NCBI GenBank assembly: GCA_964486045.1
Contig: CAZALK010000012.1
Coordinates: 96,001 to 160,000, forward strand
Origin: an uncultured archaeon
Lineage (GTDB): Archaea > Asgardarchaeota > Lokiarchaeia > Sigyniarchaeales > SOKP01
Length of the DNA: 64,000 nt
Reading direction: 5' to 3'
Shown here: positions 8,385 to 56,928 of the stretch, piece after piece
How the letters are laid out: the number at the start of each line of letters is the position of its first letter
Position numbering within the stretch: position 1 is the stretch's first letter
The notes under the pieces: generated by a model
The model's database searches: none
Told to the model about the DNA's origin: nothing
The model's input: the letters and a program-made list of their open reading frames with translations, nothing else
Position numbers and translations under genes: made by a program

Positions 8385-8488
8385 TGGGAGAGGGGGGATT
8401 TGAACCCCCGACCATTACCTGATCGCTTAAACCTTAAGAAATCTCTCGGCCCCCAGCCGAGTATCATACCAAGCTAGACTACCCTCCC
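8385..8488 (-). tRNA. tRNA-Pro(GGG) with 30-nt intron at non-canonical position 43/44 (intron 8415-8444)
   Basis: Acceptor GGGAGGG/CTCTCCC-A, anticodon arm CTCGG-CTGGGGG-CCGAG, T arm GGGGG-TTCAAAT-CCCCC. Removing AGATTTCTTAAGGTTTAAGCGATCAGGTAA leaves variable loop TGGTC and a 74-nt tRNA. No encoded CCA. Confidence 0.92.
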
Positions 8489-8527
8489 ATATTTAAGATT
8501 GGCAAGTCTATTTCAAATAATAAGCTT

Positions 8528-8806
8528 TTAAAGTGATTCCAATATCGTTTGTTTTAACTCCTTTATAATAGGAACATAACCTTCAGAAAAGATTTTCTTA
8601 TCAATGAAAATAACTGGTTGATCAAGTTCTCCATACTTATCTTTAATTTCTATCGAGGTTACGTCATTATATATTAAATCAACTTTATCTTTGAATTCTG
8701 GGAATTTTTGGGACATTTTATCAATTAATTCCTTAGCTTTATAACATTTCGAGCACCAATTTTCTTTGTTACCCTTTAAAAACACTTTAACTGCGAGTTT
8801 ATTCAT
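8528..8806 (-). CDS. Thioredoxin/glutaredoxin-fold protein
   Basis: WCSKC motif, PVIFID cis-Pro region and EGYVP. Confidence 0.8.
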   Translation of the reverse strand: MNKLAVKVFLKGNKENWCSKCYKAKELIDKMSQKFPEFKDKVDLIYNDVTSIEIKDKYGELDQPVIFIDKKIFSEGYVPIIKELKQTILESL

Positions 8807-9101
8807 ATCTAAAAACCATTATAATTGCAAAATTTTCTATTATTTATTTAAACATTCAATAAATCTAAAAATTTATCTTTTATCAGAAATCACAATGACA
8901 AATAATAATCAAGTTGCCTTTAACGAAGATTTACCAAGAGCAGGATCAGCACTATATAACCTTAACTTAAACATAAAAGATTAGCGAAATTTCTATTTGG
9001 CTCGAAACCAGAAATAGATAATCCTAATACAATTAATTTCAAAAATATTCTAGATACTCTAGTAATCGTAAGATTATATCATGAAAATGAATAAATTGAT
9101 A

Positions 9102-10652
9102 TTAAGAATTGAAAATCTTACCAGATTTTTGTTCTTCCTCTTCTCTTAATGGTTGTTTCTGAATTTTTCCTGTTGATGTTGTCTGCAATGTATCTCTAAA
9201 TTCCACATCTTTTGGAATCTTGAAATCCGCTAAATTTTTTTTGCAGAATTCTATGATTTCTTCAGCAGACGCGGTTGTCCCTTCCTTCAATACAACAAAA
9301 GCTTTCGGAAGTTCGCCATATATCTTATCTCGCACTCCAATCACTGTTGCTAGCGATACAGATGGATGTGAATAAAGAACCTCTTCAATTTCTCTTGGAT
9401 ATATATTTTCACCACCCCTAATTATCATATCTTTTTTACGATCTGTTATGAAGAAGAATCCATCTTCGTCCATATGACCAATATCTCCTGTATATAGCCA
9501 TCCATCTTTAAGTGTTTTAGCGTTTGCTTCAGGGTTCTTGAAGTACTCCTTCATTACGTTATCGCCTTTAACAAGAATCTCCCCTTTAGTATTTGAAGGT
9601 AGATCATTACTTTTTTCATCTACAATTTTCATTTCATTACCCGGTATAGGTAATCCAATACTTCCTATTTTACGTCTATCTTCTGATTCCGTTGGTAAGG
9701 GATTTACAGAAGAAACACAGGTACCTTCTGTAAGACCAAAACCTTCAACAATTTTACAATTAAATGTTGCTTCGAATTCTTTAAATACTTCAATTGGGAG
9801 TGGTGCGGCTCCACAAATCACAAATTTTAAAGAAGACAAATCTAAATTTTCATGTGGCATTTTAAGTAAGATAGAAAGCACTGTCGGAACAGCACTGAAA
9901 GTTGAAGCTTTATACTTAGCTACCGTTTCCCAGTGAGTTTTGGCTGAAAAACCAGGAGTTAAAATACAGCTAGCTCCTGCTAAGAGAGGAGTCATAACAG
10001 TCACAATTTGAGCGTTCACATGGAATAATGGTAAAATTAGCATGAATCGAAAGTCTTTGCTAGCTTTTAAGAAATCTTGTAACATTTCAGCATTTCTACG
10101 TATATTGAAATGAGTTTGCAATACACCTTTTGGAAAGCCAGTTGTTCCAGAAGTATAGAGGATTGCAGCTATATCTTCTTTCTCGTTAATCTCTACTTTA
10201 GGTGGAGCTTGACTTGATGCGTTTTCCATCAAGTTCCAAAAGTTAAGGCTTTTCCCCTCATAATCCCCTATAACTATTATATTTTTCAGATCGGGGAGAT
10301 CATTCTTTATCTCATTAACTGCTTCCATGAATTGAGGAATAGTGACAATAGCTTTAGCTTCAGAATGACCCACAACAAATTTTACTTCTCGTGGTTTAAA
10401 TAATGCATTTACAGGACCAGTCACTGCACCAATTTTAGGAATTCCTAAGTAAAGGTACACAAATTCTGGCATATTTGGTAGATAAACACTTACTTTATCT
10501 CCTTTTCTTATACCTAAATCGTATAACAAGTTTGCTACTTTATTTGAAAGTTCATTCAGTTGCTTAAAAGATACTGTTTCATCTTCCCAATATAAAAATA
10601 CTTTATCTCCATGTGTTTCCGCTTGCTTTTCAACAAACTCTCTTAAGTTCAT
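9102..10652 (-). CDS. Long-chain fatty acid-CoA ligase (ANL adenylation family)
   Basis: YTSGTTGFPKG, GFGLTE, TGDIG, DRKKDMIIRGGENIYPREIE, GKIQK. Confidence 0.93.
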   Translation of the reverse strand: MNLREFVEKQAETHGDKVFLYWEDETVSFKQLNELSNKVANLLYDLGIRKGDKVSVYLPNMPEFVYLYLGIPKIGAVTGPVNALFKPREVKFVVGHSEAKAIVTIPQFMEAVNEIKNDLPDLKNIIVIGDYEGKSLNFWNLMENASSQAPPKVEINEKEDIAAILYTSGTTGFPKGVLQTHFNIRRNAEMLQDFLKASKDFRFMLILPLFHVNAQIVTVMTPLLAGASCILTPGFSAKTHWETVAKYKASTFSAVPTVLSILLKMPHENLDLSSLKFVICGAAPLPIEVFKEFEATFNCKIVEGFGLTEGTCVSSVNPLPTESEDRRKIGSIGLPIPGNEMKIVDEKSNDLPSNTKGEILVKGDNVMKEYFKNPEANAKTLKDGWLYTGDIGHMDEDGFFFITDRKKDMIIRGGENIYPREIEEVLYSHPSVSLATVIGVRDKIYGELPKAFVVLKEGTTASAEEIIEFCKKNLADFKIPKDVEFRDTLQTTSTGKIQKQPLREEEEQKSGKIFNS

Positions 10653-10831
10653 ATTCCTTCCCTCTTTTCCAAATTTATAAAATTTCTGTTTAATTAAAAT
10701 TTAAATCATGAATACCTTTAATTCTAACTGAAAATTCAAGATGCTATAATTTTTACTAATAATTTTTATATTAGTTAAAGAGTTTTTTATCATATTGTTT
10801 TTTCTATAAAACTCACGTATTTAGTAATTTT

Positions 10832-11128
10832 ATGAGATCTCGAAAGCCTTTCTTAATTTTTTGGCCTCAATACTTTGACGGGAAGAGAAGTCGAAGTAAA
10901 GGGAGAAGATTACCAAAAAAATTTGCTATAGAAAAAGTCACTACCAGTGATATTGCCAAAGCAGCTAAGAATATAGGATATAATGCTGTTATTGAACAAG
11001 GATATAAATATTCTAGGACATGGTGGGATGACCCTGGTAGGGTCGTTATGGATGCAAAAGGAAAAAAAAAATCTAAAATTTTGCTTGAACTTGCCAAAGA
11101 ACTTAGAAAAATACAATCAAAAACATAA
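10832..11128 (+). CDS. srp19: Signal recognition particle 19 kDa protein
   Basis: IFWPQYFD..SRSKGRRLPK and YSRTWW..GRV motifs. Confidence 0.9.
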   Translation: MRSRKPFLIFWPQYFDGKRSRSKGRRLPKKFAIEKVTTSDIAKAAKNIGYNAVIEQGYKYSRTWWDDPGRVVMDAKGKKKSKILLELAKELRKIQSKT

Positions 11129-11138
11129 TTGATTTATC

Positions 11139-11507
11139 ATGCATGAATTTTCATTTGCCTATAACATCTTTCAAGTAGCTGAAGCCACAGCAATAAAGAA
11201 TAACGCCAAAAAAATAACTGAAGTTCTTTTAGAAATTGGAGAATTAACACTTATTGTACCAGAATTACTTCAACGTTCTTTTGAGATGGCTACTAAAGGT
11301 TCAATTGCCGAGGGAGCTAAATTAACAATTCAAATAACCCCAGGTAAAATTAAATGTAAGGAATGTGGTAAAGAATCTCCTGTCTCCTTAACAGAGGAAG
11401 CTCAATTAACAGGATTACAATTATTCCAGTGTTCTCATTGCGAAAGTAATAATACCGAGATAGTCGAAGGAAAAAAAGCTAATGTTAAAAATATTAAAAT
11501 ATTGTGA
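11139..11507 (+). CDS. hypA: Hydrogenase nickel metallochaperone HypA
   Basis: N-terminal MHE, GELT, two CxxC (CKEC, CSHC). Confidence 0.93.
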   Translation: MHEFSFAYNIFQVAEATAIKNNAKKITEVLLEIGELTLIVPELLQRSFEMATKGSIAEGAKLTIQITPGKIKCKECGKESPVSLTEEAQLTGLQLFQCSHCESNNTEIVEGKKANVKNIKIL

Positions 11508-11532
11508 AAAATGGTAAAATAAGTCGACTTAA

Positions 11533-12417
11533 TTATTTTTTAGCATAAACATTTCCAATCCCAAACCATTCTCCTTCAAAAGGTAATAGGTCCAATTCAT
11601 TTTTTTGACCAATGCTTTCATCTATCATCTTAAAAACGGCTTCATTAAATCCTGCATCTTTATGGAATTTTGTTACTTCATTTACTAACAAGAATTTGTC
11701 AAATCCTTCCAAATCTTGATCACCGAAAAACTCTCTCAATTTTTTAAAACCATTAGAATTTTCTTCAATAATAATCGTACTATTTAAAAAATTCTGATTA
11801 TGTTTTAAAACTCGATAAGTTTCTTTCAAAGCTTTAGGAATTAGTTCTCTCATATTAGAAATTCCCATGAATGATAATGCTAAATCATAGCTGTTTTCTA
11901 AAAATGGCAGATTAGTGGCATCACAAGATACAAAACTAACTTTAATTTTAGGTTTATGTTTTTGAATCTTTTTTCTATCAGCCTGTAGAACGACATAACT
12001 GAGGTCAGTACATACTAAATGAGACTCGTATTTTAACTCTTTTGCTAATTCGTTTAATAACATGCCCCTCCCTGTTGCTATATCAATAACGATTTCAGGC
12101 TTGTTTAAATTGAGATAATCTATAATATCTTCTATAGTTTTTAGAATAAGTTCTTGCTGATTTCCTGGAGTTTTACTTAAAATCATCTCATCAAATTCTT
12201 CAAATGACATCTCTTTAGTCAACTCACTCCACCTATTAACAGTTTCTTGTTCTTCTACTCTAAAATCTAAAACTCCATCTCTTATCTCCCAAAGTTCGTC
12301 ACATCTGCATTTCAATCTTCCATCTATTATTTCACCATTGTCTAGTACTGAATCTACAAGATGTAATGATTTATTACAATTAGGACACTTAAGCAATGCA
12401 ATTATTTCTCTATACAT
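11533..12417 (-). CDS. Class I SAM-dependent methyltransferase with N-terminal Trm112-like Zn module
   Basis: LLKCPNC...LKC..GVLDF N-terminus, DIATGRG motif I, DATNLPF, ETYRVLK. Confidence 0.8.
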   Translation of the reverse strand: MYREIIALLKCPNCNKSLHLVDSVLDNGEIIDGRLKCRCDELWEIRDGVLDFRVEEQETVNRWSELTKEMSFEEFDEMILSKTPGNQQELILKTIEDIIDYLNLNKPEIVIDIATGRGMLLNELAKELKYESHLVCTDLSYVVLQADRKKIQKHKPKIKVSFVSCDATNLPFLENSYDLALSFMGISNMRELIPKALKETYRVLKHNQNFLNSTIIIEENSNGFKKLREFFGDQDLEGFDKFLLVNEVTKFHKDAGFNEAVFKMIDESIGQKNELDLLPFEGEWFGIGNVYAKK

Positions 12418-12548
12418 TTAATTTCCCTTTCAAATTTTATTGAATTTATCAATCAGGAATATACCAAACTTAACTTCAAAGCTAATTGACTGAAATACTT
12501 CCTTTCCTTATTACTACATAGATTATCTAAAAAAGAAGAAATTGATCT

Positions 12549-12932
12549 TTAAGTTGAAATTAACACACCGTTAATATCACCATGTTGACCAGGGCGGCTT
12601 GTTATTTTTGCATTACCTAATTCAGTCTCAACTATCGCTCCTTTTGTTAGGATATGCCTTCTATTCAAATCCTTTGAAGCAATGTTATTTTCAAAACCCA
12701 TAATCCTAACTTTAGATGTTTTATTTGTATTAGGGTCTGTTACATTTATAGAATTAGTGGAAAATAATCTAATTTTCATGTTACCACCCAATGTCCTCTG
12801 CTTCTTCTTCTTTTCCTCCCCGATAACCGTATCTATTGTAGGGCGATGAAGTTCTCTTTTCCTTTTCTTCCTAAAGTGTCTGTATTTTTTCCCTGTATAT
12901 TTTCTCTTACTTCTAGCTGAACTTCGTGCCAT
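12549..12932 (-). CDS. rps8e: 30S ribosomal protein S8e (eS8)
   Basis: KRKYTG..RKKRKREL, RTLGGN, TKGAIVETELG.AKITSRPGQHG. Confidence 0.97.
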   Translation of the reverse strand: MARSSARSKRKYTGKKYRHFRKKRKRELHRPTIDTVIGEEKKKKQRTLGGNMKIRLFSTNSINVTDPNTNKTSKVRIMGFENNIASKDLNRRHILTKGAIVETELGNAKITSRPGQHGDINGVLIST

Positions 12933-13114
12933 GAAAAATTTACCAAATTCAATACAATTTAATAGGTTAGTTAAGAAAGGGTATCTTTAAAATTTTTTTA
13001 AAAAACGAACTAAATTATGTTTTATTAAGGAAAAATAAATATAGAAATAATTTTTATCTATTATAATAAATCAATCTTTAGTTATTGATTATAGTAGAAA
13101 TTGCTATTACAAAA

Positions 13115-13756
13115 ATGATAAATAATAATTTGAATCATCGAATTATCGATGAAAAAACGCTTGAAAAAGCTTTTCAAACCGGTACAACAACAGTAGGGAT
13201 AATTGTAAAAGAGGGGGTAGTTATTGGAACTGAAAGCCAGGCTTCGGCAGGTTTTCTAGTTGCCTCAAAGCAAGCACAGAAATTATTTGAAATAAATCAA
13301 TTTACTGCGGCTACAATTGCTGGCGGTGTAGCAGACTGTCAGTACGTAATTAATCAGCTCAAAGCTTTATCTCGCTTAAAAGAAGTAGAGGAGGAGGTGG
13401 TACCCGAGCCTAAATACATTGCGAGTGTTTGTCGTAATATACTTTTTAGCGGTCGAAGTTTTTTCATGAGCATGATGATAGTCGGTGGTTATTCACAAAA
13501 GGGACAATCAGGAATGTTGACAGGTATAGACATGTTAGGAACCTTGTATGAAGAGGACAGCTTTATATCTTTTGGAAGTGGTTCACCCTTTTCTCTAGGC
13601 GTGTTGGAGGCTGATTGGAAACCAAACATGTCTAAAACAGAAGGTGTTGAACTCATCAAAACAGCAATCTCAACTTCGAGAGAACGAGATGCTGGTTCTG
13701 GTTTTAAAATCCAACTTTGCACAATTAATAAAAATGGTTTCAAACAGGTTGAATAA
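13115..13756 (+). CDS. psmB: Proteasome beta subunit
   Basis: Propeptide then TG|TTTVG Ntn nucleophile, AGGVADCQ, GSGS, RDAGSG. ATG at 13115 preferred over TTG at 13085. Confidence 0.93.
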   Translation: MINNNLNHRIIDEKTLEKAFQTGTTTVGIIVKEGVVIGTESQASAGFLVASKQAQKLFEINQFTAATIAGGVADCQYVINQLKALSRLKEVEEEVVPEPKYIASVCRNILFSGRSFFMSMMIVGGYSQKGQSGMLTGIDMLGTLYEEDSFISFGSGSPFSLGVLEADWKPNMSKTEGVELIKTAISTSRERDAGSGFKIQLCTINKNGFKQVE

Positions 13757-13834
13757 TTGCATTTTTGAAATTCCTTAGGAATATTCAAAATTTTATTTAG
13801 ATAAATTTTTAGTAGAATCAACTACATCTTTGCT

Positions 13835-14350
13835 CTAGCTGACTTTTAGTTGAATTTGTTGAATCTCTTCTTCCAAATAAATAAATCCATTTATTTCAAA
13901 ATTACTTCCATCCATTATCGTCCAAATTTGATTTTTAAAGGGTACTTTCGTCATCAGGGATGAGTTTAACACAGTTTCGTAAAAATCATCTAAATATTCC
14001 ATATAATTGACATCAAATCCACTTGGATATGACCCAACGGGGTGGGAATGAAAAATACTTAAAACTCGTCTTTTATATTTTTCATTAGCATTTTTCATTA
14101 TCCTGTATAATTCTTCAATATTTTCCATTAAGAAATTAACTGGGGAGCTTTGATCTGATCTAATGCACTCAATGATCTCCCCAAAGTAGTGATATTGATA
14201 TTTTCCGGGATTATCTAAGATGATTTCTTTTGGTTGAGGTCCTAAAATCAACCCAAAAGCTTCATTAGGACTAGCATTTTGAACACAACCCTTCATATTT
14301 CCATAAATTTCTGGATCAATATAGAAAACTATATCTTTTTGATATTTCAT
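13835..14350 (-). CDS. JAMM/MPN+ (Mov34) metalloprotease
   Basis: PNEAFG Glu plus FHSHP..SYPSGFD (HxH-x7-S-xx-D). Confidence 0.88.
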   Translation of the reverse strand: MKYQKDIVFYIDPEIYGNMKGCVQNASPNEAFGLILGPQPKEIILDNPGKYQYHYFGEIIECIRSDQSSPVNFLMENIEELYRIMKNANEKYKRRVLSIFHSHPVGSYPSGFDVNYMEYLDDFYETVLNSSLMTKVPFKNQIWTIMDGSNFEINGFIYLEEEIQQIQLKVS

Positions 14351-14375
14351 TTTTTTTCGATTCTTATATTAAATT

Positions 14376-15059
14376 TTATATTAGGGTTAGAGCCGCATTA
14401 AGAGTTGCAATTCTCGCTTTTTGAGGACTATCTCCAGAACCAATTGCAACTACATCATTGTTTTCTAATTTAACCTTTCTCTCAGTCAATTTAGATTCAA
14501 AGTATTTTTGGAGTTCTTTATTTACTATCGAGTCATTATTACTAATTCCAGAATAAGATTTTGATGGAAAAATTAGATTTTTTCCACTATAAACTAAACA
14601 TGTTGCTCCAAAACCATTTATTTTGATTGCTGCGTCTCTTTGATTGATACCATCAGTTATTTTATGACTTGCATTTTTCACTAAACAAAAATATACTGAT
14701 GTTTCTTCAGGTTCAACAATTATATCCTTAAGCACAGAAGATTCTCCTCTTTCGATTATAGGAATAATTGTTTTTATTTTTTCTAAATATTTTAATCCCA
14801 ATTCAGTTAAAACGTGCCCCTTTCTTTTTGTCTCAACAACTACAGCAACAAAATTTTTTTTCTCATTTAGTTTCTTAATTAATGACTTTGCAGTTCCTTC
14901 ACCAATCATTAATTCTTTTTGTAAGCGGTATCTTCCAATACCTTCCGGATTTTCACCAAATATAAATAAAGCTAATATAACATGAACTCTCTCAAATGAT
15001 GGTTTAATTGTAGAACTCTCGAATAGCGAATCTAATTCTTCAAACATCAATGCACTCAT
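14376..15059 (-). CDS. Winged-helix protein, DUF4443-like
   Basis: IGRYRLQKELMIGEGTAKSL wHTH, KGHVLT wing, GINQRDAA motif. Confidence 0.65.
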   Translation of the reverse strand: MSALMFEELDSLFESSTIKPSFERVHVILALFIFGENPEGIGRYRLQKELMIGEGTAKSLIKKLNEKKNFVAVVVETKRKGHVLTELGLKYLEKIKTIIPIIERGESSVLKDIIVEPEETSVYFCLVKNASHKITDGINQRDAAIKINGFGATCLVYSGKNLIFPSKSYSGISNNDSIVNKELQKYFESKLTERKVKLENNDVVAIGSGDSPQKARIATLNAALTLI

Positions 15060-15185
15060 GAATATGTAAGTAATTAAAGTAAAAAAATTAATATTAAAAA
15101 ATATAAATCAAGTTGTCATATTATTATTTATCGAAAATTTAGAAATTCAAGTTGTATTTAATAATTAACATCATCCTCATTTAAA

Positions 15186-16175
15186 ATGAAGGAAAAAAAG
15201 GATGGAACAAATCCCGATCAGACACAAGATCTAGTTATTTTCAAAAGGAAAGAAGAGCGGGAAAGTAAAGATCTCCCTAAATTTACTTTTGAGGCAATCG
15301 ATCAAGAGGACAAAATAAGACTATTAAATGAGTTTAAACCTTACGGTGGGCATTATGTGCTTTCAATTCAACTATTGAATGAAAGTTTAGCACCAATATC
15401 AGAAGTAAAAATTAAAATTAGGTATTCAAATTTCTTAAAACTAACAAGAAGTTACCCGCCTACCATATACATTTCAGAACCGATTGAGGAAGTGGAAACA
15501 TCTAAATTAGTTCTCGAATTTGACGAACTAAATGAAAGAAGCAAAAAGCAACTTAACTTACACTTTACCCCACTCTCATTAGGTAATGAAGGAGAGATAA
15601 GAACGATTGTTACCTATGTAAATAATAAAGATTTTGTTCGAGTCTTAAATTCAGACCCAGTTACTATTACATTAGATAAAATAACCATTAATCCTAAGAT
15701 AATTCCAAGCTCATATGTCAGAGAATTTTCACAAATTCCCCGTATGAAAAGAGCCGTTAAAAGCTTAGGGATTGGAACACGAGGAAAAAATGATCCCGAT
15801 TTATATTTCAAACTATTAGAACAGGTATTCCTTAGGAACAGTCTTCAATTAATAACTAAAGATCCTGAAAAAAAAATTCTATGGTATTTTGGATCTGATT
15901 TAGAATCGAGAGACGATGTATTAATAATTGGAAAAACCGGGGCAAATAAAGTAAAAATAATCGGTACCTCAAAAAATCATCATGTTCTTATTTCATTTTT
16001 AACATCATTTTCCAATGAATTTAAAGAGCATCTTTTGATAAGTGGAATCGTAAGCAGCCTTGATGACATATATGATTTAGAATGCAAGTATTGTGGGACG
16101 ATTCTCCCTTATTTCCCTAAAAAAGGTGAAGAAGTTCAATGCTCTAAATGCAAATATGAACAACTTTTATGGTAG
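15186..16175 (+). CDS. Hypothetical protein, beta-rich with C-terminal zinc ribbon
   Basis: CKYCG...CSKCKY at the C-terminus. The N-terminal part has an alternating beta-strand pattern. Confidence 0.7.
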   Translation: MKEKKDGTNPDQTQDLVIFKRKEERESKDLPKFTFEAIDQEDKIRLLNEFKPYGGHYVLSIQLLNESLAPISEVKIKIRYSNFLKLTRSYPPTIYISEPIEEVETSKLVLEFDELNERSKKQLNLHFTPLSLGNEGEIRTIVTYVNNKDFVRVLNSDPVTITLDKITINPKIIPSSYVREFSQIPRMKRAVKSLGIGTRGKNDPDLYFKLLEQVFLRNSLQLITKDPEKKILWYFGSDLESRDDVLIIGKTGANKVKIIGTSKNHHVLISFLTSFSNEFKEHLLISGIVSSLDDIYDLECKYCGTILPYFPKKGEEVQCSKCKYEQLLW

Positions 16176-16689: not shown

Positions 16690-16694
16690 GGAGG
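16690..16694 (+). promoter_or_regulatory. Shine-Dalgarno-like GGAGG upstream of the histone ATG
   Basis: GGAGG lies 8 nt before the ATG at 16703. Confidence 0.6.
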
Positions 16695-16702
16695 AATAAA
16701 AA

Positions 16703-16978
16703 ATGGCTGGATCAGATTACATTTCTTGGTCACCAATAAGACGTCTCATGAAGCACAACGGGGCTGTAAGTCAATAAACCTCTTTTTGACTGGCTAAAAT
16801 CGTTGCGCGAGATGCCGTTAATGAGTTAGTTGATTGGATGGGTCAATCAGCAGAAACACTCACAAAAACCGCGTTAACTTTAACTAAACACTCTAAAATT
16901 CTTATAGGATTCCTATAAAAATAGGAAAGAAAGAAAGTAACGCGTAATGACATCTTATTGGCCATCAAGTATTTTTAA
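16703..16978 (+). CDS. Archaeal histone (71 aa), split by two 30-nt BHB introns; exons 16703-16767, 16798-16897, 16928-16978
   Basis: Spliced product MAGSDYISWSPIRRLMKHNGAVIVARDAVNELVDWMGQSAETLTKTALTLTKHSKRKKVTRNDILLAIKYF is a complete histone fold (PIRRL, GA.IV..DA, H.KRK.V...DI.LA). Each insert has two in-frame stops and a BHB fold. Confidence 0.88.
16768..16797 (+). other. Putative mRNA intron 1 (BHB), 30 nt
   Basis: Central helix GGCU/GGCU, 5' bulge GU|A, inner stem AGUCAA/UUGACU, 3' bulge AA|A(A), outer stem CAACG/CGUUG. In-frame TAA and TGA. Confidence 0.8.
16898..16927 (+). other. Putative mRNA intron 2 (BHB), 30 nt
   Basis: Central helix UCUA/UAGG, bulges AA|A and AA|A, inner stem UUCUUAUAGG/CCUAUAAAAA, distal outer pairing GCGUU..ACUUU/AAAGU.AACGC. 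In-frame TAA and TAG. Confidence 0.82.
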
Positions 16979-16987
16979 AGGGATTTT

Positions 16988-17053: not shown

Positions 17054-17098
17054 AAAATTTAATCCTAAATAGATCATTTTATCGTTCTGTTTGAATTT

Positions 17099-17251: not shown

Positions 17252-17261
17252 AGCTCTTTTT

Positions 17262-47735: not shown

Positions 47736-47740
47736 AATAA

Positions 47741-48658: not shown

Positions 48659-48793
48659 TTTCAACAATCAAAAATTTAGTTTTTCTAGTATTTTTAAGAT
48701 ATTACACAATCGAATAAAAATTTAAATCAAAAGCTTATTAATTCTATAATATTAAATTAAGTACTAGAAATACATACACAGAGATCAAAAGAT

Positions 48794-49717: not shown

Positions 49718-49718
49718 A

Positions 49719-51539
49719 TTATTCTCCGAAATCTTTATCAATGGTAGTTTCTTCGATAACTGGTGGTACGTAATCCCCAATAGCACCAAATATAATTTTC
49801 GCTATTTCCCACCCTTTTTCTGTTGGATATTTTAATGCGTTTTTTATTAATTCTTCCCCAACTTCATTATTCACTTCAACTTTATGAATATTTGCATTAT
49901 TTTGCAAGATACTTTCAAATTTTGCTCCTTTACTGCCAATGGGTACAATCAATAAGGCTTCATCAATTGCCTTTTGTTCAATCGCATCTTTTAGACGTTT
50001 TGCTGCATAATATCCAGCGACTCCTGCACTTCTGTCAAAAGTTTTAATAGAAGGAATTTCCAAGCCCCATTTTTTACCTTCTGCTTCGATTAACGCTGCC
50101 AAAGTTTGAGCTCTTTTTCCAAGCATAAATTTAAACTCCATTTGAGTTTTAAATCGCTTTCCTTTTTCCTCACCAATCATATTAATACATTTTAATGTGG
50201 CACCAGCAATAGATTGGGGATTAACATCTATCGAATATTCTTCCTCGGCTAAAATATCTTCAATCGTCCTTTTAATAACTTCCCTGGGTTTTGAAAAATC
50301 GATCACTTCTTCTTTGGTCAACGATTGAGGTCTCGCTGTACCAACAATTTCCGCTCCAACTTCTAAAAGTTCGTCAACCGTCATTTCTTCCATAACAACT
50401 TTGTCTATAAATCTTCGACAAAGTTTAATGGAGTTCCTTGGATTACCATTTGTTTTTTCAAAAATCAACTCAATTAATTTTTCATTCAATGGAAATAACG
50501 GATATAAAGGAGGATTTAAATTATTATCATCCCAAAAGGTTTCCATTGATTTCGAAAAGAATATTTTAAGATCATTGAGACTAAATGGTTTCAATTCTTG
50601 TTCAGGTTCCATTCTCGAGCGTAGTGGTGCATCGGCTATCTCGATAATTCTCGGCCATATTTCTTTTAATACCGCAATGGTGATAACTAAGCCTTTTACT
50701 TCATTGTAGAGTCTCTTTAAAATCTCTAGAAATTTACGCTCAGCAACCTCGCCTAACATTCTATAGGGACTTTCTAATTCATCAAAATATAGAATAAGAA
50801 CTGTGTCTAAATTCTCAGTGATAATTTTTATCAAACTTAGGCAAATATCATCTTCCTCTAGAATAGAATTAACGCCTAAATTGGATAGCTCCTCATCATC
50901 TAAGTCTTCGCCAAGAAGCCATCGTTCCGCAATTCCCTTCTTGTTCTTATCGAGTTGATATGTAACCAATGCCTTTACACAGTCTGCGAAAACGCCTGGA
51001 AACTCCCTAACTCCCCTTTGAAGCACTTCCTCAATTTTAGGTTTTTGGAATAGCCCCTTTTTTTCTCCACCCCATTTTTTCACTAATCGTTCAGAAACAA
51101 TATCAAGTAATTCAGCACCCATTTCTTCAATTATACAAGTATAAACATGAAGCAATACACGTATACTTGCTGGAGGGCTAGGAATATAGATAATAGACCA
51201 ATTAAAATCTTCTAATTTTCCTACTTCAATCTCTTGAACATCTTTAGCTTGCTCTAATTTTTTCAAATTCTCTCGTTCTTTATCTTTAAAAGAATGATAT
51301 GCATGAGTTTTCCCTGTTCCTGCTGATCCCAGAATTGGAATTAAGCGCGATGATTTATCTCTAGCAGTTTGACGAACTAAACGATAAACCTCTCGGTCAA
51401 TAAAAGCTCGTGGTCTTGCCACGTCAATCTTATCAGGCAGATGCCCGCGTGACACGAAGTTTGAGAAGGGCAGTATCGGGGTTTCACGGAGCACATCGAG
51501 GTACATATTTCGGTCATCTTCATTAAGCTCACTATACAT
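49719..51539 (-). CDS. P-loop AAA-type ATPase of unknown function
   Basis: Walker A GSAGTGKT, Walker B LYFDELE, RSR finger, GNPR sensor. Confidence 0.75.
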   Translation of the reverse strand: MYSELNEDDRNMYLDVLRETPILPFSNFVSRGHLPDKIDVARPRAFIDREVYRLVRQTARDKSSRLIPILGSAGTGKTHAYHSFKDKERENLKKLEQAKDVQEIEVGKLEDFNWSIIYIPSPPASIRVLLHVYTCIIEEMGAELLDIVSERLVKKWGGEKKGLFQKPKIEEVLQRGVREFPGVFADCVKALVTYQLDKNKKGIAERWLLGEDLDDEELSNLGVNSILEEDDICLSLIKIITENLDTVLILYFDELESPYRMLGEVAERKFLEILKRLYNEVKGLVITIAVLKEIWPRIIEIADAPLRSRMEPEQELKPFSLNDLKIFFSKSMETFWDDNNLNPPLYPLFPLNEKLIELIFEKTNGNPRNSIKLCRRFIDKVVMEEMTVDELLEVGAEIVGTARPQSLTKEEVIDFSKPREVIKRTIEDILAEEEYSIDVNPQSIAGATLKCINMIGEEKGKRFKTQMEFKFMLGKRAQTLAALIEAEGKKWGLEIPSIKTFDRSAGVAGYYAAKRLKDAIEQKAIDEALLIVPIGSKGAKFESILQNNANIHKVEVNNEVGEELIKNALKYPTEKGWEIAKIIFGAIGDYVPPVIEETTIDKDFGE

Positions 51540-51738
51540 ACAAACTCACTACTCTCCAGATTTTATTTATTGAACTATAGGAATTTTTAATTGGATTAAA
51601 TTTATTAGTTTAGACAATTTTATCTAATATATAAGCTATTTAGTTTTTAGCAACTATAATACTTAATTAAAAATTTTGCCTATTAAATTTAATTAATATT
51701 TAGAAGTTCAATCAATTACATTAAAGAGATGATTTATT

Positions 51739-52404
51739 ATACCTAAAAGAGACAAATATGATGATGAGGATGAAGAAGATGAAGAGGAAAATCCTTTTGA
51801 CTTTTTTAAGCAATTCGGGGATCCTAGTAAATTTTTTTCAGATCCAAATAAATTTTTAATCGATCCAAATAAATTGTTTAAATCAAAGGATTTCAGGAAA
51901 TTATTTAAGGAAATTTTTGAGAAAATGATGAATAATTTACCTCCTGAAATGCAAAACCTTTCTCCTGAAGAGCTTATGAAGGAATTCACAAAGAATCGAT
52001 CAAAATTCGGATTTTTTCCGATTACTTATGGATTTAATATAAATATAGGAAAAGATGGTAAACCTACTATAGATTCATTTGGAAACGTCAAAACTAAACC
52101 ATATTCAGGAAAACCTGTGGTAAAGTCAAAGAGAGAACCATTAGTCGAGGTTAATGAAGAATCGGATCAGATAATTGTTATAGCTGAAATTCCGGGAGTA
52201 GATCGGGATGATATTGAGCTAAAAGCAACAAGTCATAGTTTGACAATTTCAACTAAGGAGAATGCTAGCATGCATTACTACAAAAATGTTGAGTTTTCCA
52301 CAGTGATAAATTCGGATGTCGCTAAAGCAAGATATGTGAACGGAATTCTTGAAGTACGCTTGAAAAAGATTGATGAAAAACATAGAAGCATTAGAATTGA
52401 TTAA
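51739..52404 (+). CDS. hsp20: Archaeal small heat shock protein Hsp20; probable non-canonical ATA start at 51739
   Basis: YGFNINIGKDGKP..FGN, REPLVEV, AEIPGV, YVNGILEV. Frame is open upstream of TTG 51874 to ATA 51739. Confidence 0.85.
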   Translation: MPKRDKYDDEDEEDEEENPFDFFKQFGDPSKFFSDPNKFLIDPNKLFKSKDFRKLFKEIFEKMMNNLPPEMQNLSPEELMKEFTKNRSKFGFFPITYGFNINIGKDGKPTIDSFGNVKTKPYSGKPVVKSKREPLVEVNEESDQIIVIAEIPGVDRDDIELKATSHSLTISTKENASMHYYKNVEFSTVINSDVAKARYVNGILEVRLKKIDEKHRSIRID

Positions 52405-52557
52405 TATTGTTACTAGTATATAATTAATCACTGCATAACTTTTTATTAAGCAATTTTAGGTCCCATTACTTTTGTTTTTTGAATTTGTTAATTTTACTAA
52501 AGGTTTATTACCTTCTTCATCAAATAAGATTTTTAATATCATTATTTGGTTTTTAAA

Positions 52558-53577
52558 ATGTCTGAAAAAAAAAAAGAACTTCTCTCCCAAAAAGGATTAA
52601 TGATTATTGGAATCGTTTCGCTAGCAATTTTGGTTATAGGGATAATATTATACTATCTCGACTTAAATGGTGCGTTTTATGTTTCGATGTATCCAGTTCA
52701 ATCAATTTTTAGGATTATAACTTATCTTGGTGAACCAGTCATTTTCATTATTATCATTGCTATTATTTTTTTAATTTATAATAAGAATTATGCGAAAAAC
52801 TTAGCATTTAGCTTATTATATTCCTATTTTTTGAATGGATTATTTAAAGAATTTTTTAAGGATCCTCGACCAAGTACAAATGTAGATCCTGTAGAAGATT
52901 ATGGATATATAGAACCAGATTATGGATTTCCATCTGGACATGCTCAAACCGCAGTGTCATTTTGGGGATATGTAGGTTATGAATTTAAAGACAAGTATAA
53001 GTACAAAAACATTCAAATTGTGCCAGTTATAATGTCTATCCTGATTTTTTTAATAGCGATTTCAAGAATTATTATTGGTGTTCATGATTTACAAGATATT
53101 ATTGGAGGTTTAATGCTAGGTATCGGATTTCTGCTATTATTCATCTATATAGAACCGTATTTAACTGAGTTATTCAATAAACTGTCTTTCCTTGCAAAAA
53201 TAATATTAACAGCCTTGATAGGAGTCTTATTGTTTCTCATAGGAACTCTTATATTTCCCTCAGCAGGTTTAGGATTAGTGACTCCATCACTCCTTTATAA
53301 AGATGATGGGGTATTTGCCCAAGTCGGAGGATCTGTGCTAGGTTTTGGTGTTGGATATTTGTTAGAACAAAAATATGTTAAATATGATCCAACACACCTT
53401 ACTAACAAAAAGAAGTTGAAAAATCTAGCCATAGGATTAATAATTCTAATTGTTATTTTTGTACCTTTTGAATATTTAATAAAAATAGATAGTGTAGTTT
53501 ATAGATTCTTCAGATATGCTCTCCCGACATTCATTTTGGCTTATGTAGTTCCTTTAATTTGCACAAAAATAGATTAA
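52558..53577 (+). CDS. PAP2-family membrane phosphatase
   Basis: K...DPRP, GFPSGHAQ, SRIIIGVHDLQD. Confidence 0.9.
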   Translation: MSEKKKELLSQKGLMIIGIVSLAILVIGIILYYLDLNGAFYVSMYPVQSIFRIITYLGEPVIFIIIIAIIFLIYNKNYAKNLAFSLLYSYFLNGLFKEFFKDPRPSTNVDPVEDYGYIEPDYGFPSGHAQTAVSFWGYVGYEFKDKYKYKNIQIVPVIMSILIFLIAISRIIIGVHDLQDIIGGLMLGIGFLLLFIYIEPYLTELFNKLSFLAKIILTALIGVLLFLIGTLIFPSAGLGLVTPSLLYKDDGVFAQVGGSVLGFGVGYLLEQKYVKYDPTHLTNKKKLKNLAIGLIILIVIFVPFEYLIKIDSVVYRFFRYALPTFILAYVVPLICTKID

Positions 53578-53603
53578 AAAATCTAGTTATTTTCTTTTTT
53601 TTT

Positions 53604-54554
53604 TTAATTTTTTTGTCTTACAATAATGATTATTGAGATGACTATTATAAATGTACCAATTAAATGGAATATTGAAAATAATTCTCCAAGAAGAATAAAG
53701 GAGAAAAAAGCTGTGACAATTGGGGTTAACGAAAGAATAACACTCGCTTTCCCTATTTCGAGATATGTGAGGCTTTTATACCAAAGAAATAGGCTAAAAC
53801 CGTAGTCTACTCCCATCAATAGAAAATAAATGAAATATTGAGGATCTATTACAATTAATATATTTTTCAGTGGAAAGAATAGAAAGTAAGTAAAGAAGAG
53901 AATTAATCCGCTAATTAAATTCCTCATAAAAACAACTTGGGTTGGAAACAAATCGTTTCGATCAAAGTTTGATTTTGTAAGTGTATGAACAAGGGTAAAT
54001 ATGACAACACTAATGAGTAAAATAGCAACCCCTATATTTATAGTAAGGGTGTCAAAAGAAGCTTGAGTTACTGATATAATCAACCCAACAAATAGCAGAA
54101 AACAAAAAAGAATCTGAATTCCGGATATTTTTTCTTTAAGAAGTAAGAATCCAAAAATTAGCGCAAATATTATTTCACTCTTAAAAATTAAAGAACTATT
54201 AATTGCTCCCGCGATTTCAAATCCAATATAGTTAAGAACAGGAACAATACTAAAAGTTAATCCAATAAAGAGAAGAAATTTGATATTTTTACTTTCTTTC
54301 CATCCATTTAATAATGATCGAATCTTTATTTGTTGACTCTGCCCTTTCTCCATTGTTAAACTATTCTTTAGTCTTCTTCTTTCTAAAATATAAAGTGGTA
54401 AGAAAATTAATGCTTCTATTAAGGCCGTAATCGCAGCAAATAAGTAAGGGTCAATAATTTTAGGTCTGGAATTTGCAATAACTGGTTGGAGACCTATTGT
54501 GAAGATTGCGATTATACCAAAAAGAAGCCCTTTTTTTAGGTTCTCATTTTCCAC
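53604..54554 (-). CDS. DMT/EamA family transporter
   Basis: About 10 TM in two repeats, LLKEKI and LLGE motifs. Confidence 0.85.
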   Translation of the reverse strand: MENENLKKGLLFGIIAIFTIGLQPVIANSRPKIIDPYLFAAITALIEALIFLPLYILERRRLKNSLTMEKGQSQQIKIRSLLNGWKESKNIKFLLFIGLTFSIVPVLNYIGFEIAGAINSSLIFKSEIIFALIFGFLLLKEKISGIQILFCFLLFVGLIISVTQASFDTLTINIGVAILLISVVIFTLVHTLTKSNFDRNDLFPTQVVFMRNLISGLILFFTYFLFFPLKNILIVIDPQYFIYFLLMGVDYGFSLFLWYKSLTYLEIGKASVILSLTPIVTAFFSFILLGELFSIFHLIGTFIIVISIIIIVRQKN

Positions 54555-54967
54555 AATACATAAGAAAAAGCGGAGTAAAATAATAACTATTTAGTTTTAA
54601 CTATTTTTCAGAAAAATTAGAGTAGATATAGGATATTTTTCTTAAATGGTAAACTAACAAATAACTCAGTTCATTATCTCAATGCTTTCCCTTCCAACTT
54701 CCCTTAAAAGAATTCGATTGATTATGATTTTCTCGCTTTTCATAACTTCATCATAATGTGTAACAATCTGATTAATGTATATCTCCTCTTTGAAGGGATG
54801 AGGCATAACTTCTTCAAGTCGAATTATAGAAACACCTAATAAGTTAAAATTAAGTAGGAAAATTAGAAACAATTTATAAAATTTCCTATTTTTCATTCGA
54901 CAAAAAAGAACGAAAATTGCATTAAAATTAAAAAGATGTTTATATTTGATCAAATTTTCACTTTTCT

Positions 54968-55477
54968 ATGTCAGATAGTGAAACATCAAATTCTGATGAA
55001 AGGTTACCCTTAGATACTAATGCACCGATGATAGATACCGTTGATGCATTCGGAAATCCAATAAATCTTACCGAGATTCTCAAAGAAAATAATGGTTTAA
55101 TAATTGACTTTCACAGAGCGGCATGGTGATATTACTGAAAAATTCAGCTAGGAAAATTAAACAAAAATATAGACGAAATTAAGAAAAGAAACGTTAAACT
55201 CATTACAATTATGACCGATAGAACTATGCCAGTAAAAAAACTCGCAGAAAGCAAAAAGTATGATTTTACTATTATAGCGGATGAAAAGGCAGAAATATCA
55301 AGACGGTATAAAGCATTCGGAAAACCTATAGACTTTGACAAGATAAAAATGTTGATAGCTATACCTACAACATATTTAATTGATACCAACGGGAAAATTG
55401 TCTGGCGATATCTCGGTAATAAAACAGAAAGACCTTCAATTGAAGCTATCCTAGAAGCCATCGATACTAAATTATAA
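54968..55477 (+). CDS. Peroxiredoxin-like (AhpC/TSA) selenoprotein, 169 aa, UxxU (TGA at 55127-55129 and 55136-55138)
   Basis: Read-through gives ...APMIDTVDAFGNPINL...IIDFHRAAW-U-Y-Y-U-KIQL...IIADE...IPTTYLIDTNGKIVWRY..RP. Both TGAs sit at the redox CxxC positions and a SECIS-like hairpin follows. Confidence 0.85.
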
Positions 55478-55494
55478 TCTATATCTATAAAAAT

Positions 55495-55560
55495 TGTTCT
55501 TGAATGATTCGAGTATAAAAAAATGAGATACTCGAGGACGACCTCGCAAAGGTTCATGAA
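55495..55560 (+). promoter_or_regulatory. Eukaryote-type SECIS element in the 3' UTR
   Basis: AUGA-U (55504-55508), perfect 8-bp stem UCGAGUAU/AUACUCGA, A-rich apical loop, G-GA-C (55536-55539). Confidence 0.75.
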
Positions 55561-55689
55561 AACCTCATTTTTAATGAAGACTTGTTTTTAACCATTATAC
55601 GAAGTTCTAAATCATAATAAAAGTAAAACTATCTAATTTTCAAGGAGAATTTGTTACTAATCTTTTAAATTTCGTTGAGAAATTCTAAT

Positions 55690-56190
55690 TTAGACGTCCG
55701 AGGTTCCTATTATTCCCCCTACTAAACCTAAAACTCCGCCAGCTAACAATGTAATTGTTCCCAATGAGGTAGGTCCTATGGCTAAGTTAAAGGGCAGCAC
55801 CCCATCCACTATAGGGAGTTCCCAGAATAATTGGGTATATTCTAACATGTCCAATATCCCCAGATTAATTAATAAAATCAGTACACCTATAGCTAATGGT
55901 AAAATTGAGCCTATAATCGCAACAACACGGCTTGCCAAACCCACTAATTGTAGAATTCCAGAAAGTATAAAAACAAGATAGACGATAGCAAGAATATACA
56001 CAACAATTACGTCAACCGCCATAGTTATAGCATATCCATCAGCAGAGCTTAAGATCGTAGGAATATTGAATACAAATCCTAACCCAGATGCAAATGCACC
56101 AGTGGGAATAACTTCAAAAAAGGCAAAGAAAAAGGTTGAAACAAGAGTTAAAAGAGCGCCTATAAGAATTAAAATTTTTCCAGCTCCCAA
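55690..56190 (-). CDS. Hypothetical membrane protein
   Basis: 4 hydrophobic segments with a Gly-rich C-terminal helix. Confidence 0.7.
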   Translation of the reverse strand: MGAGKILILIGALLTLVSTFFFAFFEVIPTGAFASGLGFVFNIPTILSSADGYAITMAVDVIVVYILAIVYLVFILSGILQLVGLASRVVAIIGSILPLAIGVLILLINLGILDMLEYTQLFWELPIVDGVLPFNLAIGPTSLGTITLLAGGVLGLVGGIIGTSDV

Positions 56191-56266
56191 TAAATTTCAC
56201 TTTTAGTTATTTTTTTTTTTTTCGTTCTTAGTTTTAAATAGATCAGATGATATATATAACATTGAT

Positions 56267-56725
56267 CTATTTTAATAATTCCAAATATGGTTTGATTTTA
56301 TCTTTTCCTTCTTGATTCTGAATGCTTTCTAGGATTTTTTTTGATAGTTCTTTTTTTTTCCTAAAATAAATCTCCATAATCTCCTCTATTGGCTTTTCTG
56401 GGTATCGTTCAACCAAAGCAACGTCGCGTCGACTACATCCCCCTGCTCTCATGCAACAGTAAGAAATCGAGCCAAAACATACCACATCTGAATCCCATTC
56501 ATTCTCTCTTGAGAAATCTTCCTTAATCTTGATAAACTCTTTACCACTTATTCCCACTTCGCTTAATGTTTCGTCTCTCCTACATTTATAGCCATAAGTT
56601 AAGGATTCTCCTGGTTTACAACAAAATGTTAAAGCTCTACAATCTCCACCGAAACATACAGGGACTGGTGCATTTTTTTCCCATCCGGGTAAGTCGCGGA
56701 GTTTATCTTGTTCTATGTTAGGCAT
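56267..56725 (-). CDS. Stand-alone methanogenesis marker 9 domain protein (Cys-rich)
   Basis: WEKNAPVPVCFGGDCRALTFCCKP...CFGSISYCC...C.RRD. Confidence 0.75.
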   Translation of the reverse strand: MPNIEQDKLRDLPGWEKNAPVPVCFGGDCRALTFCCKPGESLTYGYKCRRDETLSEVGISGKEFIKIKEDFSRENEWDSDVVCFGSISYCCMRAGGCSRRDVALVERYPEKPIEEIMEIYFRKKKELSKKILESIQNQEGKDKIKPYLELLK

Positions 56726-56823
56726 TATTCAAAAATTTCAAAATAAATATTAATAGAATACCATCACTAAAAATGTATTTAACAATTTTAATTTTTCACT
56801 TTATTACCATAAATATGGTTTAA

Positions 56824-56928
56824 TGGGGCTCAGAGGGGGTTTACCGCGTTGCAGGAATCCAGCATTCAAAATCGATCCCCCGTCTAGGGATTCACAGTCC
56901 CCAATTCTCCCATTGAACTACCCGAGCC
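56824..56928 (-). tRNA. tRNA-His(GTG) with encoded G-1 and CCA, and a 30-nt intron in the T-loop (59/60; intron 56841-56870)
   Basis: G-GCTCGGG.../TCTGAGC-C-CCA, anticodon loop CTGTGAA, T stem GGGGG/CCCCC. BHB central helix AUCG/CGGU with bulges AU|U and AA|A. Confidence 0.92.

What the first reader, a model, noticed from the sequence alone, without database searches (positions are those of the whole stretch)
8415..56870. All four introns in the window (2 mRNA, 2 tRNA) are exactly 30 nt and share features
Seen: tRNA-Pro AGATTTCTTAAGGTTTAAGCGATCAGGTAA, histone-1 AAGTCAATAAACCTCTTTTTGACTGGCTAA, histone-2 ATTCTTATAGGATTCCTATAAAAATAGGAA, tRNA-His TTTGAATGCTGGATTCCTGCAACGCGGTAA. All are 30 nt, form a single hairpin and end in a GG-containing helix strand plus AA. 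Histone-2 and tRNA-His share GGATTCCT at the apex, and histone-2 and tRNA-Pro share TTCTTA-AGG. Lengths are set independently by tRNA geometry and histone homology. Inference: a size-constrained intron family spreads, perhaps by reverse splicing, among abundant RNAs including mRNA.
Basis: partly seen in the sequence, partly recalled or inferred. Interest (0 to 1): 0.85.

Follow-up and report, generated by a model that had tools for sequence, protein, structure and literature searches.

The report
Thirty-base introns in tRNAs and mRNAs
A Loki-type Asgard archaeon carries tiny introns, mostly exactly 30 bases long and built to one plan, that interrupt tRNA genes and also dozens of protein genes (histones, RNA polymerase, EF-2), so these messages very probably have to be spliced by the tRNA-splicing enzyme.

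Summary
All four sequences sit at the stated coordinates and each is a 30-nt bulge-helix-bulge (BHB) intron.

All share one plan: 1 nt, a 23-nt hairpin, a 4-nt strand that pairs with the exon, then 2 nt (usually AA).

The equal lengths reflect a genome-wide mode:
- **Histone genes:** intron-free orthologues in the genus are exactly 60 nt shorter. A paralogue and other species carry such introns at five or more positions, nine of 30 nt and one of 31.
- **Motif-free comparison with a relative:** own-genome insertions spike at 10 codons (11 cases, 9 with stops). Those nine have the BHB geometry and the stop-free controls do not.
- **Hosts:** they include single-copy RpoA' and EF-2.
- **tRNA introns:** 30 nt is the mode (8 of about 21). 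Canonical-position ones are 17-22 nt, so the enzyme does not demand 30.

The genome encodes a two-subunit EndA and one RtcB.

Spread as a sequence family by reverse splicing is not shown.

No RNA data were available here. Unchecked notes from this scan report similar mRNA introns in other Asgard genomes, some with RNA support.

The parts
8385..8488 (-). tRNA-Pro(GGG) gene interrupted at position 43/44 (start of the variable loop)
   Evidence: Rfam tRNA 49.2 bits, model 1-71. Cloverleaf score 45 after removing 30 nt.
8415..8444 (-). 30-nt intron of tRNA-Pro. Exon strand GCCG (8450-8447) pairs 3 of 4 with intron strand AGGT (8420-8417). 23-nt hairpin at 8443-8421. Ends in AA.
   Evidence: Relaxed BHB (3,0,4). 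The minimum-energy fold prefers another pairing.
16690..16694 (+). GGAGG ribosome-binding site of the histone gene
   Evidence: Read. Conserved in all orthologues.
16703..16978 (+). Histone-fold gene: exons 16703-16767, 16798-16897 and 16928-16978, giving 71 aa after splicing
   Evidence: Colinear with intron-free 213-nt orthologues.
16768..16797 (+). Histone intron 1 (30 nt, phase 2). Central helix 16762-16765 with 16792-16795. Hairpin 16769-16791. Bulges GUA and AAA(A).
   Evidence: The minimum-energy fold is the BHB itself. Absent from orthologues. Another species (L088) has a 30-nt intron at the same site.
16898..16927 (+). Histone intron 2 (30 nt, phase 0). Central helix 16892-16895 with 16922-16925. 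Hairpin 16899-16921. Both bulges AAA.
   Evidence: Absent from orthologues. An alternative hairpin competes in the minimum-energy fold.
56824..56928 (-). tRNA-His(GTG) gene with encoded G-1 and CCA, interrupted in the T-loop (about 59/60)
   Evidence: Read. Weak Rfam hit. Exons invariant in 4 species.
56841..56870 (-). 30-nt intron of tRNA-His. Central helix ATCG (56876-56873) with CGGT (56846-56843). The outer helix is the T-stem, GGGGG/CCCCC.
   Evidence: 4,5,1. The minimum-energy fold shows outer helix, central helix and 3-nt bulge. Same length in G002, G062 and G013.

Best explanation
The four inserts are genuine archaeal bulge-helix-bulge introns. They belong to a class with a fixed architecture that is widespread in this Lokiarchaeial (Promethearchaeota) genome.

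Each intron supplies almost everything needed for its own removal:
- one bulge nucleotide;
- a 23-nt hairpin (the inner helix);
- a 4-nt strand that pairs with the exon four nucleotides ending 2 nt upstream of the 5' cut (the central helix);
- two bulge nucleotides, usually AA.

Inferred mechanism: the two-subunit splicing endonuclease cuts after the second nucleotide of each 3-nt bulge, and RtcB joins the exons. This restores the tRNA cloverleaf or the reading frame.

The class occupies non-canonical positions in tRNA genes. By extrapolation it also sits in some 30-60 protein-coding genes, including the single-copy RpoA' and EF-2 genes.

The uniform 30-nt size belongs to this class and genus. 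It is not a requirement of the enzyme, which must also handle introns of 17-49 nt. It reflects either how these introns arise or stabilising selection on the cassette. The sequences are not a recent repeat family.
For: Shown:
- **Exact 30-nt gaps against intron-free orthologues**.
- **Registers chosen by the central helix alone give better products.** In the paralogue on contig 6 they yield KHNG and TRND, identical to the orthologues and better than naive boundaries.
- **Motif-free tblastn census** against 2.0 Mb of relative G023, covering about 512,000 aligned residues:
  - Own-genome insert lengths spike at 10 aa: 11 cases, 9 with stops, against 0-5 at neighbouring lengths of 6-13 aa.
  - One 27-nt and two 31-nt inserts were also found.
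- **BHB geometry separates introns from ordinary indels**. All 9 stop-containing 30-nt inserts have 3-4 of 4 central pairs and 7-9 of 10 hairpin pairs. Stop-free inserts treated identically have 4-6 hairpin pairs, and only one of ten has a perfect central helix.
- **Pfam domains run through the inserts** in RpoA', amidohydrolase/FwdA, GH57, BcrAD_BadFG and thiolase.
- **RpoA' and EF-2 are single copy**.
- **tRNA introns:** 30 nt in 8 cases and 29-31 nt in 11 of about 21. Canonical Ser introns are 17, 19 and 22 nt.
- **Histone introns across the genus:** five or more positions, nine of 30 nt and one of 31.
- **Orthologous introns keep stems and length** while loops and stem sequences change.
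- **Enzymes:** two EndA paralogues. One is closest to crenarchaeal catalytic subunits 3P1Z_B and 3AJV_B; the other lacks the His by my reading. There is one RtcB.
Against: - No RNA evidence for this organism.
- Folding energies of the four window introns are unremarkable (z from -0.1 to -1.65).
- For histone intron 2 and tRNA-Pro the minimum-energy fold is not the BHB.
- tRNA-Pro has only 3 of 4 central pairs and no outer helix.
- Several introns have weak or absent outer helices.
- My genome-wide motif scans show only a modest excess at 30 nt: 89 against 56-63 at 33, 36 and 39 nt.
- The multi-intron tRNA solutions are approximate.
Confidence: 0.85

Rival explanations
1. Mobile family. A 30-nt intron RNA, probably circular after excision, re-inserts into other RNAs by reversal of the endonuclease and ligase steps and is fixed in DNA by reverse transcription and recombination. 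The common length is then inherited from a common ancestor.
For: - One architecture and one length in unrelated hosts.
- Repeated gains at five or more sites of one small gene family within a genus.
- Twelve inserts in this genome against two in the relative over the same orthologues.
- Mean best-hit similarity 18.05 against 16.4 in shuffles (p about 0.02).
- Two suggestive pairs: histone intron 2 here with intron 2 of the contig-6 paralogue, and GH57 with the Ras-like GTPase, which share an 11-mer.
Against: - The best pairs are individually within chance (p about 0.13), and most introns have no recognisable relative.
- Similar hairpins carry different 4-nt guide strands, which simple copying does not predict.
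- A preprint found almost no cross-isotype intron families in Asgard tRNAs, unlike Thermoproteales, and no reverse-transcription signature (10.64898/2026.10.13.758758).
- There is no excess of free-standing copies in the genome.
Confidence: 0.3
2. Convergent size by selection. Introns arise in various ways, but away from the tRNA anticodon arm only a self-contained cassette survives: a hairpin of about 10 bp with a 3-5 nt loop plus a 4-nt guide. Survival depends on it folding reliably against coding constraints and translation. Lengths are therefore trimmed to about 30 nt.
For: - Canonical-position tRNA introns, which can lean on the anticodon stem, are shorter and variable (17-22 nt, and 49). 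Non-canonical and mRNA introns cluster at 27-31 nt.
- Orthologous introns change sequence but keep pairing and length.
- Sequence similarity is weak.
Against: - Selection for stability alone should tolerate 26-36 nt, yet 30 nt accounts for 9 of 12 census inserts and 9 of 10 histone introns.
- Notes from other Asgard genomes report working mRNA introns of 25-41 nt (unchecked here).
Confidence: 0.35
3. Coincidence or ascertainment. Four equal lengths arise by chance, or because in-frame inserts are easier to spot.
For: - Protein-alignment methods see multiples of 3 more easily.
- Given the genome's own distribution, four out of four at 30 nt is not improbable (roughly 0.1).
Against: - tRNA introns carry no frame bias and still peak at 30 nt.
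- Among multiples of 3 the census gives 27 nt once, 30 nt nine times, and none of 33 nt or longer with stops.
- Between-HSP analysis, which detects other lengths, found only two inserts, both of 31 nt.
Confidence: 0.03
4. Not introns at all: stop-codon recoding, ribosomal bypassing of a hairpin, or decaying pseudogenes.
For: - Inserts are in frame and hairpin-shaped.
- Some relatives come from a study of stop-codon recoding. This rests on the record titles and my own knowledge.
Against: - All three stop codons occur inside the inserts.
- Orthologues lack the 10 residues.
- The same architecture sits in tRNAs.
- Phases 0, 1 and 2 all occur, and 27- and 31-nt members exist.
- Single-copy essential genes are affected, and the exons are otherwise intact and conserved.
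Confidence: 0.02

Closest known systems
BHB intron in the cbf5 pre-mRNA of Crenarchaeota (Watanabe 2002; Yokobori 2009, PMC2738675)
   Same: A tRNA-type BHB intron inside a protein-coding sequence. It is thought to be removed by the splicing endonuclease and a ligase, and is gained and lost among relatives.
   Different: That is one gene family in another phylum. Here there are dozens of unrelated genes, up to two introns in a 71-codon gene, and a near-constant 30-nt size.
Non-canonical and 'transposed' tRNA introns of Thermoproteales (Sugahara 2008; Fujishima 2010, as cited in the preprint read)
   Same: Many introns at non-canonical tRNA positions, cut by a broad-specificity two-subunit endonuclease. 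Intron gain was proposed to occur by copying.
   Different: Those form clear sequence families: 28% in families of at least 80% identity, against 7% for shuffled sequences. Here similarity is marginal, and the class extends into mRNAs.
[quoted passage not shown]
   Same: Asgard lineage, repeated gains, placement at BHB-competent sites, two EndA paralogues, and no clear arrival route.
   Different: That work reports a median of 22-23 nt in other families and does not treat mRNA. Here the mode is 30 nt and tRNA and mRNA introns share one architecture.
HAC1/XBP1 unconventional mRNA splicing (IRE1 cut, RtcB ligation; own knowledge, and RtcB papers listed)
   Same: Spliceosome-independent removal of a short intron from an mRNA, defined by RNA structure and followed by RtcB-type ligation.
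   Different: It uses a different nuclease and stem-loop motif and is regulatory in one mRNA. Here splicing is constitutive in many genes.

Membership tests
Archaeal bulge-helix-bulge intron | 4-bp central helix between the two cut sites | tested here: met
   4 of 4 pairs in 3 window introns and 3 of 4 in tRNA-Pro. 8 of the 9 motif-free census inserts have 4 of 4.
Archaeal bulge-helix-bulge intron | Two 3-nt bulges on opposite strands, each 3' of a central-helix strand. Cutting after the second bulge nucleotide restores the product. | tested here: met
   The registers reproduce the orthologues' codons and the tRNA cloverleaf. One 3' bulge is 4 nt, in histone intron 1.
Archaeal bulge-helix-bulge intron | Flanking outer and inner helices (strict hBHBh' form) | tested here: inconclusive
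   The inner hairpin is always present, with 7-10 of 10 pairs. The outer helix is often 0-2 bp, which is the relaxed HBh' form.
Archaeal bulge-helix-bulge intron | Host encodes the splicing endonuclease and an RtcB ligase | tested here: met
   Two EndA paralogues above the TIGR00324 cut-off and one RtcB at 557 bits.
Archaeal bulge-helix-bulge intron | Intron absent from mature RNA | not testable with these tools
Broad-specificity (alpha-beta)2 EndA | Two different subunits, one catalytic and one structural | tested here: inconclusive
   Two 200-aa paralogues. One is nearest to the A. pernix and P. aerophilum catalytic chains. The other lacks the catalytic His by my reading of the sequence. Assembly was not tested.
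Transposing intron sequence family (Thermoproteales type) | Introns at different sites sharing 70-80% or more sequence identity, beyond shuffles | tested here: not met
   Only two partial pairs. The maximum pair score has p about 0.13 and the mean best hit p about 0.02.
Translational bypass or stop-codon recoding | Insert retained in mRNA and either skipped or decoded by the ribosome | tested here: not met
   The same cassette occurs in tRNAs, all three stop codons occur, and 27- and 31-nt members and all phases exist.

The most novel reading that the evidence does not exclude
This Lokiarchaeial genus harbours an actively expanding, length-defined 30-nt intron cassette. It is generated or inserted by a dedicated route, for example RNA-level re-insertion of excised 30-nt circles by EndA and RtcB followed by conversion to DNA. 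It has moved from tRNA genes into the coding sequences of core genes. That would be a living example of structure-defined introns colonising mRNAs in the archaeal lineage closest to eukaryotes.
Probability: 0.25. Interest if true: 0.95.

Novelty: new variant of a known kind. Interest (0 to 1): 0.8.

Why it matters
In the papers I could search, endonuclease-type splicing of a coding sequence in Archaea is documented only for cbf5. Here the same chemistry appears to be needed for RNA polymerase, EF-2, histones and dozens of other genes in an Asgard archaeon.

The introns follow a single 30-nt plan shared with tRNA introns. This has three consequences:
- Gene callers will truncate or split these genes.
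- tRNA finders miss most tRNAs in this genome.
- A sharp size rule is a concrete, testable clue to how such introns are born and recognised. That bears on how introns can invade mRNAs where transcription and translation are coupled.

Tried and rejected
- ARAGORN found no tRNA in the window and mis-called most in the genome. Brute-force deletion followed by ARAGORN was too permissive.
- The first version of my tRNA scorer had an indexing error and let introns hide in long variable arms. It was corrected.
- My early hand reading that the tRNA-Pro intron is 32 nt was a misread of the sequence. It is withdrawn.
- Genome-wide counts of BHB-like motifs by length showed no signal above a mirror-motif control. 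Adding open-frame, codon or hexamer filters did not help. Background from antisense open frames and gene junctions swamps a few dozen true sites.
- Only the added hairpin filter gave a modest excess at 30 nt. The candidate list is mostly noise and is not used as a census.
- The two-intron tRNA solver sometimes split one intron in two. I used only the solutions consistent.
- Folding z-scores for the four window introns are not significant.
- Literature searches found no paper on mRNA BHB introns in Asgard archaea. The library is incomplete.
Full report
**What is in the window**

The window is contig 12, bases 96001-160000, of a 5.18-Mb, 31% G+C assembly. Titles of related records place it among Promethearchaeota, i.e. 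Lokiarchaeia. Its DNA is held by marine-sediment metagenomes.

- **tRNA-Pro(GGG)**, 8385-8488 minus, is the only tRNA that Rfam finds.
- **tRNA-His(GTG)**, 56824-56928 minus, is interrupted in its T-loop and scores below threshold.
- **The histone gene**, 16703-16978, has a GGAGG site and three same-frame blocks separated by two 30-nt stretches holding four stop codons.

**Are the lengths right?**

For the histone gene the answer is independent of any motif. In 60 related genomes most orthologues, about 90% identical in protein, are uninterrupted ORFs of 213 or 204 nt. A DNA alignment shows two clean 30-nt gaps against the window gene.

For the tRNAs:
- A corrected cloverleaf scorer gives scores of 40-47 on intron-free tRNAs of this genome.
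- It gives 30 nt for tRNA-Pro with a 5-nt variable loop. Infernal places a 30-31 nt insert at the same spot.
- The tRNA-His insert is 30 nt in this genome and in three other species, with invariant exons.

**Are they BHB introns?**

I used the canonical geometry: outer helix, 4-bp central helix, a 3-nt bulge 3' of each central strand, inner helix, and a cut after the second bulge nucleotide.

tRNA-Pro has 3 of 4 pairs.
- In tRNA-His the outer helix is the T-stem.
- For histone intron 1 the minimum-energy fold is the BHB itself. For histone intron 2 and tRNA-Pro another pairing wins.
- None of the four is thermodynamically exceptional.

The strongest single argument comes from the paralogous histone gene on contig 6, which has two further 30-nt inserts at other positions. 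The registers chosen solely by a perfect central helix give the products KHNG and TRND. These match the orthologues, whereas naive boundaries give KNNG and TKND.

**The class beyond the window**

*Histones across the genus.* Introns sit at five or more positions:
- after MKH;
- after GAV;
- after HSK;
- after VTR;
- after RDD.

Nine are 30 nt and one is 31.

Comparisons of orthologous introns show what is conserved:
- One species (locus L088) has introns at the same two sites as the window gene. Its hairpin sequences differ but still pair.
- The contig-6 introns and their orthologues in another species differ mainly in the loop.

*Motif-free census.* I fetched 2.0 Mb of a single-contig relative, G023, and compared open frames with the other genome by tblastn in both directions.

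- About 512,000 residues aligned at 45% identity or better, in about 1,400 genes.
- Own-genome insertion lengths fall off smoothly from 2 to 9 residues, then spike at 10: 11 cases, 9 with stop codons.
- One stop-containing insert is 27 nt, and two of 31 nt were seen as frame-changing gaps.
- All nine 30-nt inserts have 3-4 of 4 central pairs and 7-9 of 10 hairpin pairs. Stop-free inserts of 24-39 nt, register-optimised the same way, have 4-6 hairpin pairs, and only one of ten has a perfect central helix.
- G023 has only two such introns in the same comparison, both 30 nt. One is in EF-2, at a different site from the one here.

*Hosts confirmed here:*
- RpoA' (contig 13, 44101-44130);
- EF-2 (contig 13, 92018-92047);
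- an FwdA-like amidohydrolase;
- a thiolase;
- a GH57 enzyme;
- two Ras-like GTPases;
- a BcrAD-type ATPase (27 nt);
- several others.

Pfam domains run through the insert in five of the eight hosts tested. RpoA' and EF-2 are the only copies in the assembly, so the inserts must be removed or bypassed for the cell to live.

Twelve inserts per roughly 1.5 Mb of aligned coding sequence extrapolates to some 30-60 in the genome. That agrees with a modest excess at 30 nt in a filtered motif scan: 89 against 56-63 at 33, 36 and 39 nt.

**tRNA introns genome-wide**

From seeds with an intact T-arm and acceptor stem, solved, the intron lengths are:

| Length (nt) | Count | Genes or note |
|---|---|---|
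| 30 | 8 | Ala-TGC, Ala-CGC, Lys-TTT, Pro-GGG, Leu-GAG, His-GTG, second intron of Phe, second intron of Glu-TTC |
| 29 | 2 | Thr-CGT, Pro-TGG |
| 31 | 1 | first intron of Glu-TTC |
| 34 | 1 | first intron of Phe |
| 35 | 1 | Asp-GTC |
| 38 | 1 | Glu-CTC |
| 26-28 | 3 | Leu-TAA, Arg-TCT, Thr-GGT |
| 49 | 1 | Met-CAT |
| 17, 19, 22 | 3 | canonical-position introns of three tRNA-Ser |

So 30 nt is the mode, but the same enzyme evidently also handles other sizes. The multi-intron solutions are approximate. G023 tRNA genes show the same excess of about 30 nt over mature length, so the class is shared by the genus.

**Architecture and sequence**

Every member reads as 1 nt, then a hairpin of intron length minus 7 (23 nt for the 30-nt members), then a 4-nt strand complementary to the exon, then 2 nt.

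- Among the 21 thirty-nt introns compared, the last two bases are AA in 12 of 21, and the first of the two is A in 18 of 21.
- The first exon base after the mRNA introns is A in 13 of 15.
- No internal sequence is conserved.
- Phases 0, 1 and 2 all occur.
- Introns tend toward the 5' part of long genes, at relative positions of 0.04-0.16 in five of the long hosts. The sample is small.

Smith-Waterman comparison of 20 introns gives a mean best hit of 18.05. Mononucleotide shuffles give 16.3 (p below 0.004) and shuffles that keep the hairpin give 16.4 (p about 0.02). The top pair has p about 0.13.

The best pairs are the second introns of the two histone paralogues, and GH57 with a Ras-like GTPase, which share an 11-mer.

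**Enzymes**

There are two EndA paralogues of about 200 aa.
- One is nearest to the catalytic chains of the Aeropyrum and Pyrobaculum heterotetramers.
- In the other I read no catalytic histidine.
- There is one RtcB.

This fits the broad-specificity two-subunit type. Assembly and activity are inferred.

**Interpretation**

Shown:
- the inserts are real;
- they are in DNA of independent assemblies;
- they are absent from orthologues;
- they are BHB-shaped;
- they peak sharply at 30 nt in both tRNA and protein genes.

Inferred: they are cut by EndA and joined by RtcB.

Open: why 30. I give comparable weight to two readings. One is a shared mode of origin, a mobile or templated cassette. The other is stabilising selection on a self-contained cassette that must fold without help from a tRNA body. 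The weak sequence similarity, and the negative results of the Asgard tRNA preprint on copying and reverse transcription, keep the reverse-splicing idea unproven.

**Relation to earlier notes of this scan**

First-reader notes on other pieces of this genome list the same kind of 30-nt inserts in fwdA, RpoA', EF-2, a Rab-like GTPase, GH57 and the second histone gene. I located and tested these myself.

Follow-up notes on other Asgard genomes report exact removal of 25-32-nt mRNA introns in public RNA data. I could not check those, and they are not used as evidence here. This scan has therefore noted the general phenomenon before, on other DNA. What this report adds is the length rule and the shared tRNA and mRNA architecture.

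Noticed in passing
own genome, contig 6, about 146563-146835 (+) (locus L018): A second histone paralogue has two 30-nt BHB introns at positions different from the window gene. The orthologue in another species (L013/L081) keeps both, with changes mainly in the loop.
   Followed up: yes
relative G023, about 1382059 (+) in the 2.0 Mb fetched (L094-L204): EF-2 of the relative carries a 30-nt BHB intron before EEQERGIT. This genome's EF-2 is instead interrupted inside the P-loop (AH|IDHGKTT). These look like independent gains in one essential gene.
   Followed up: partly
L210 (G013), tRNA-His, alignment A1 columns 54-84: This species has an extra 31-nt insert right after the anticodon loop, in addition to the conserved 30-nt T-loop intron.
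   Followed up: partly
own genome, contigs C40 and C45: Two short contigs have 58-59% G+C against about 31% elsewhere. They are probably contamination of the bin (contamination estimate 7.8%).
   Followed up: no
own genome, C15:137830-137917 (+), and G023 at about 739262: A tRNA-Sec(TCA)-like gene of 88 nt is found by ARAGORN and Rfam, suggesting selenocysteine use.
   Followed up: no
window 56824-56928 (-): tRNA-His has both G-1 and the 3' CCA encoded in the gene.
   Followed up: no
own genome, C1:511007 (+): One census intron (30 nt, 4 of 4 central pairs) lies in a gene about 1.2 kb upstream of the RtcB ligase gene (C1:512216-513523). The host gene was not identified.
   Followed up: no
own genome, whole: Standard finders recover only about 30 of the expected 46 or so tRNA genes, many of them wrongly (ARAGORN 31 calls with spurious anticodons; Rfam 25 above cut-off). 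Annotation of this genome will under-call tRNAs and split intron-bearing ORFs.
   Followed up: partly
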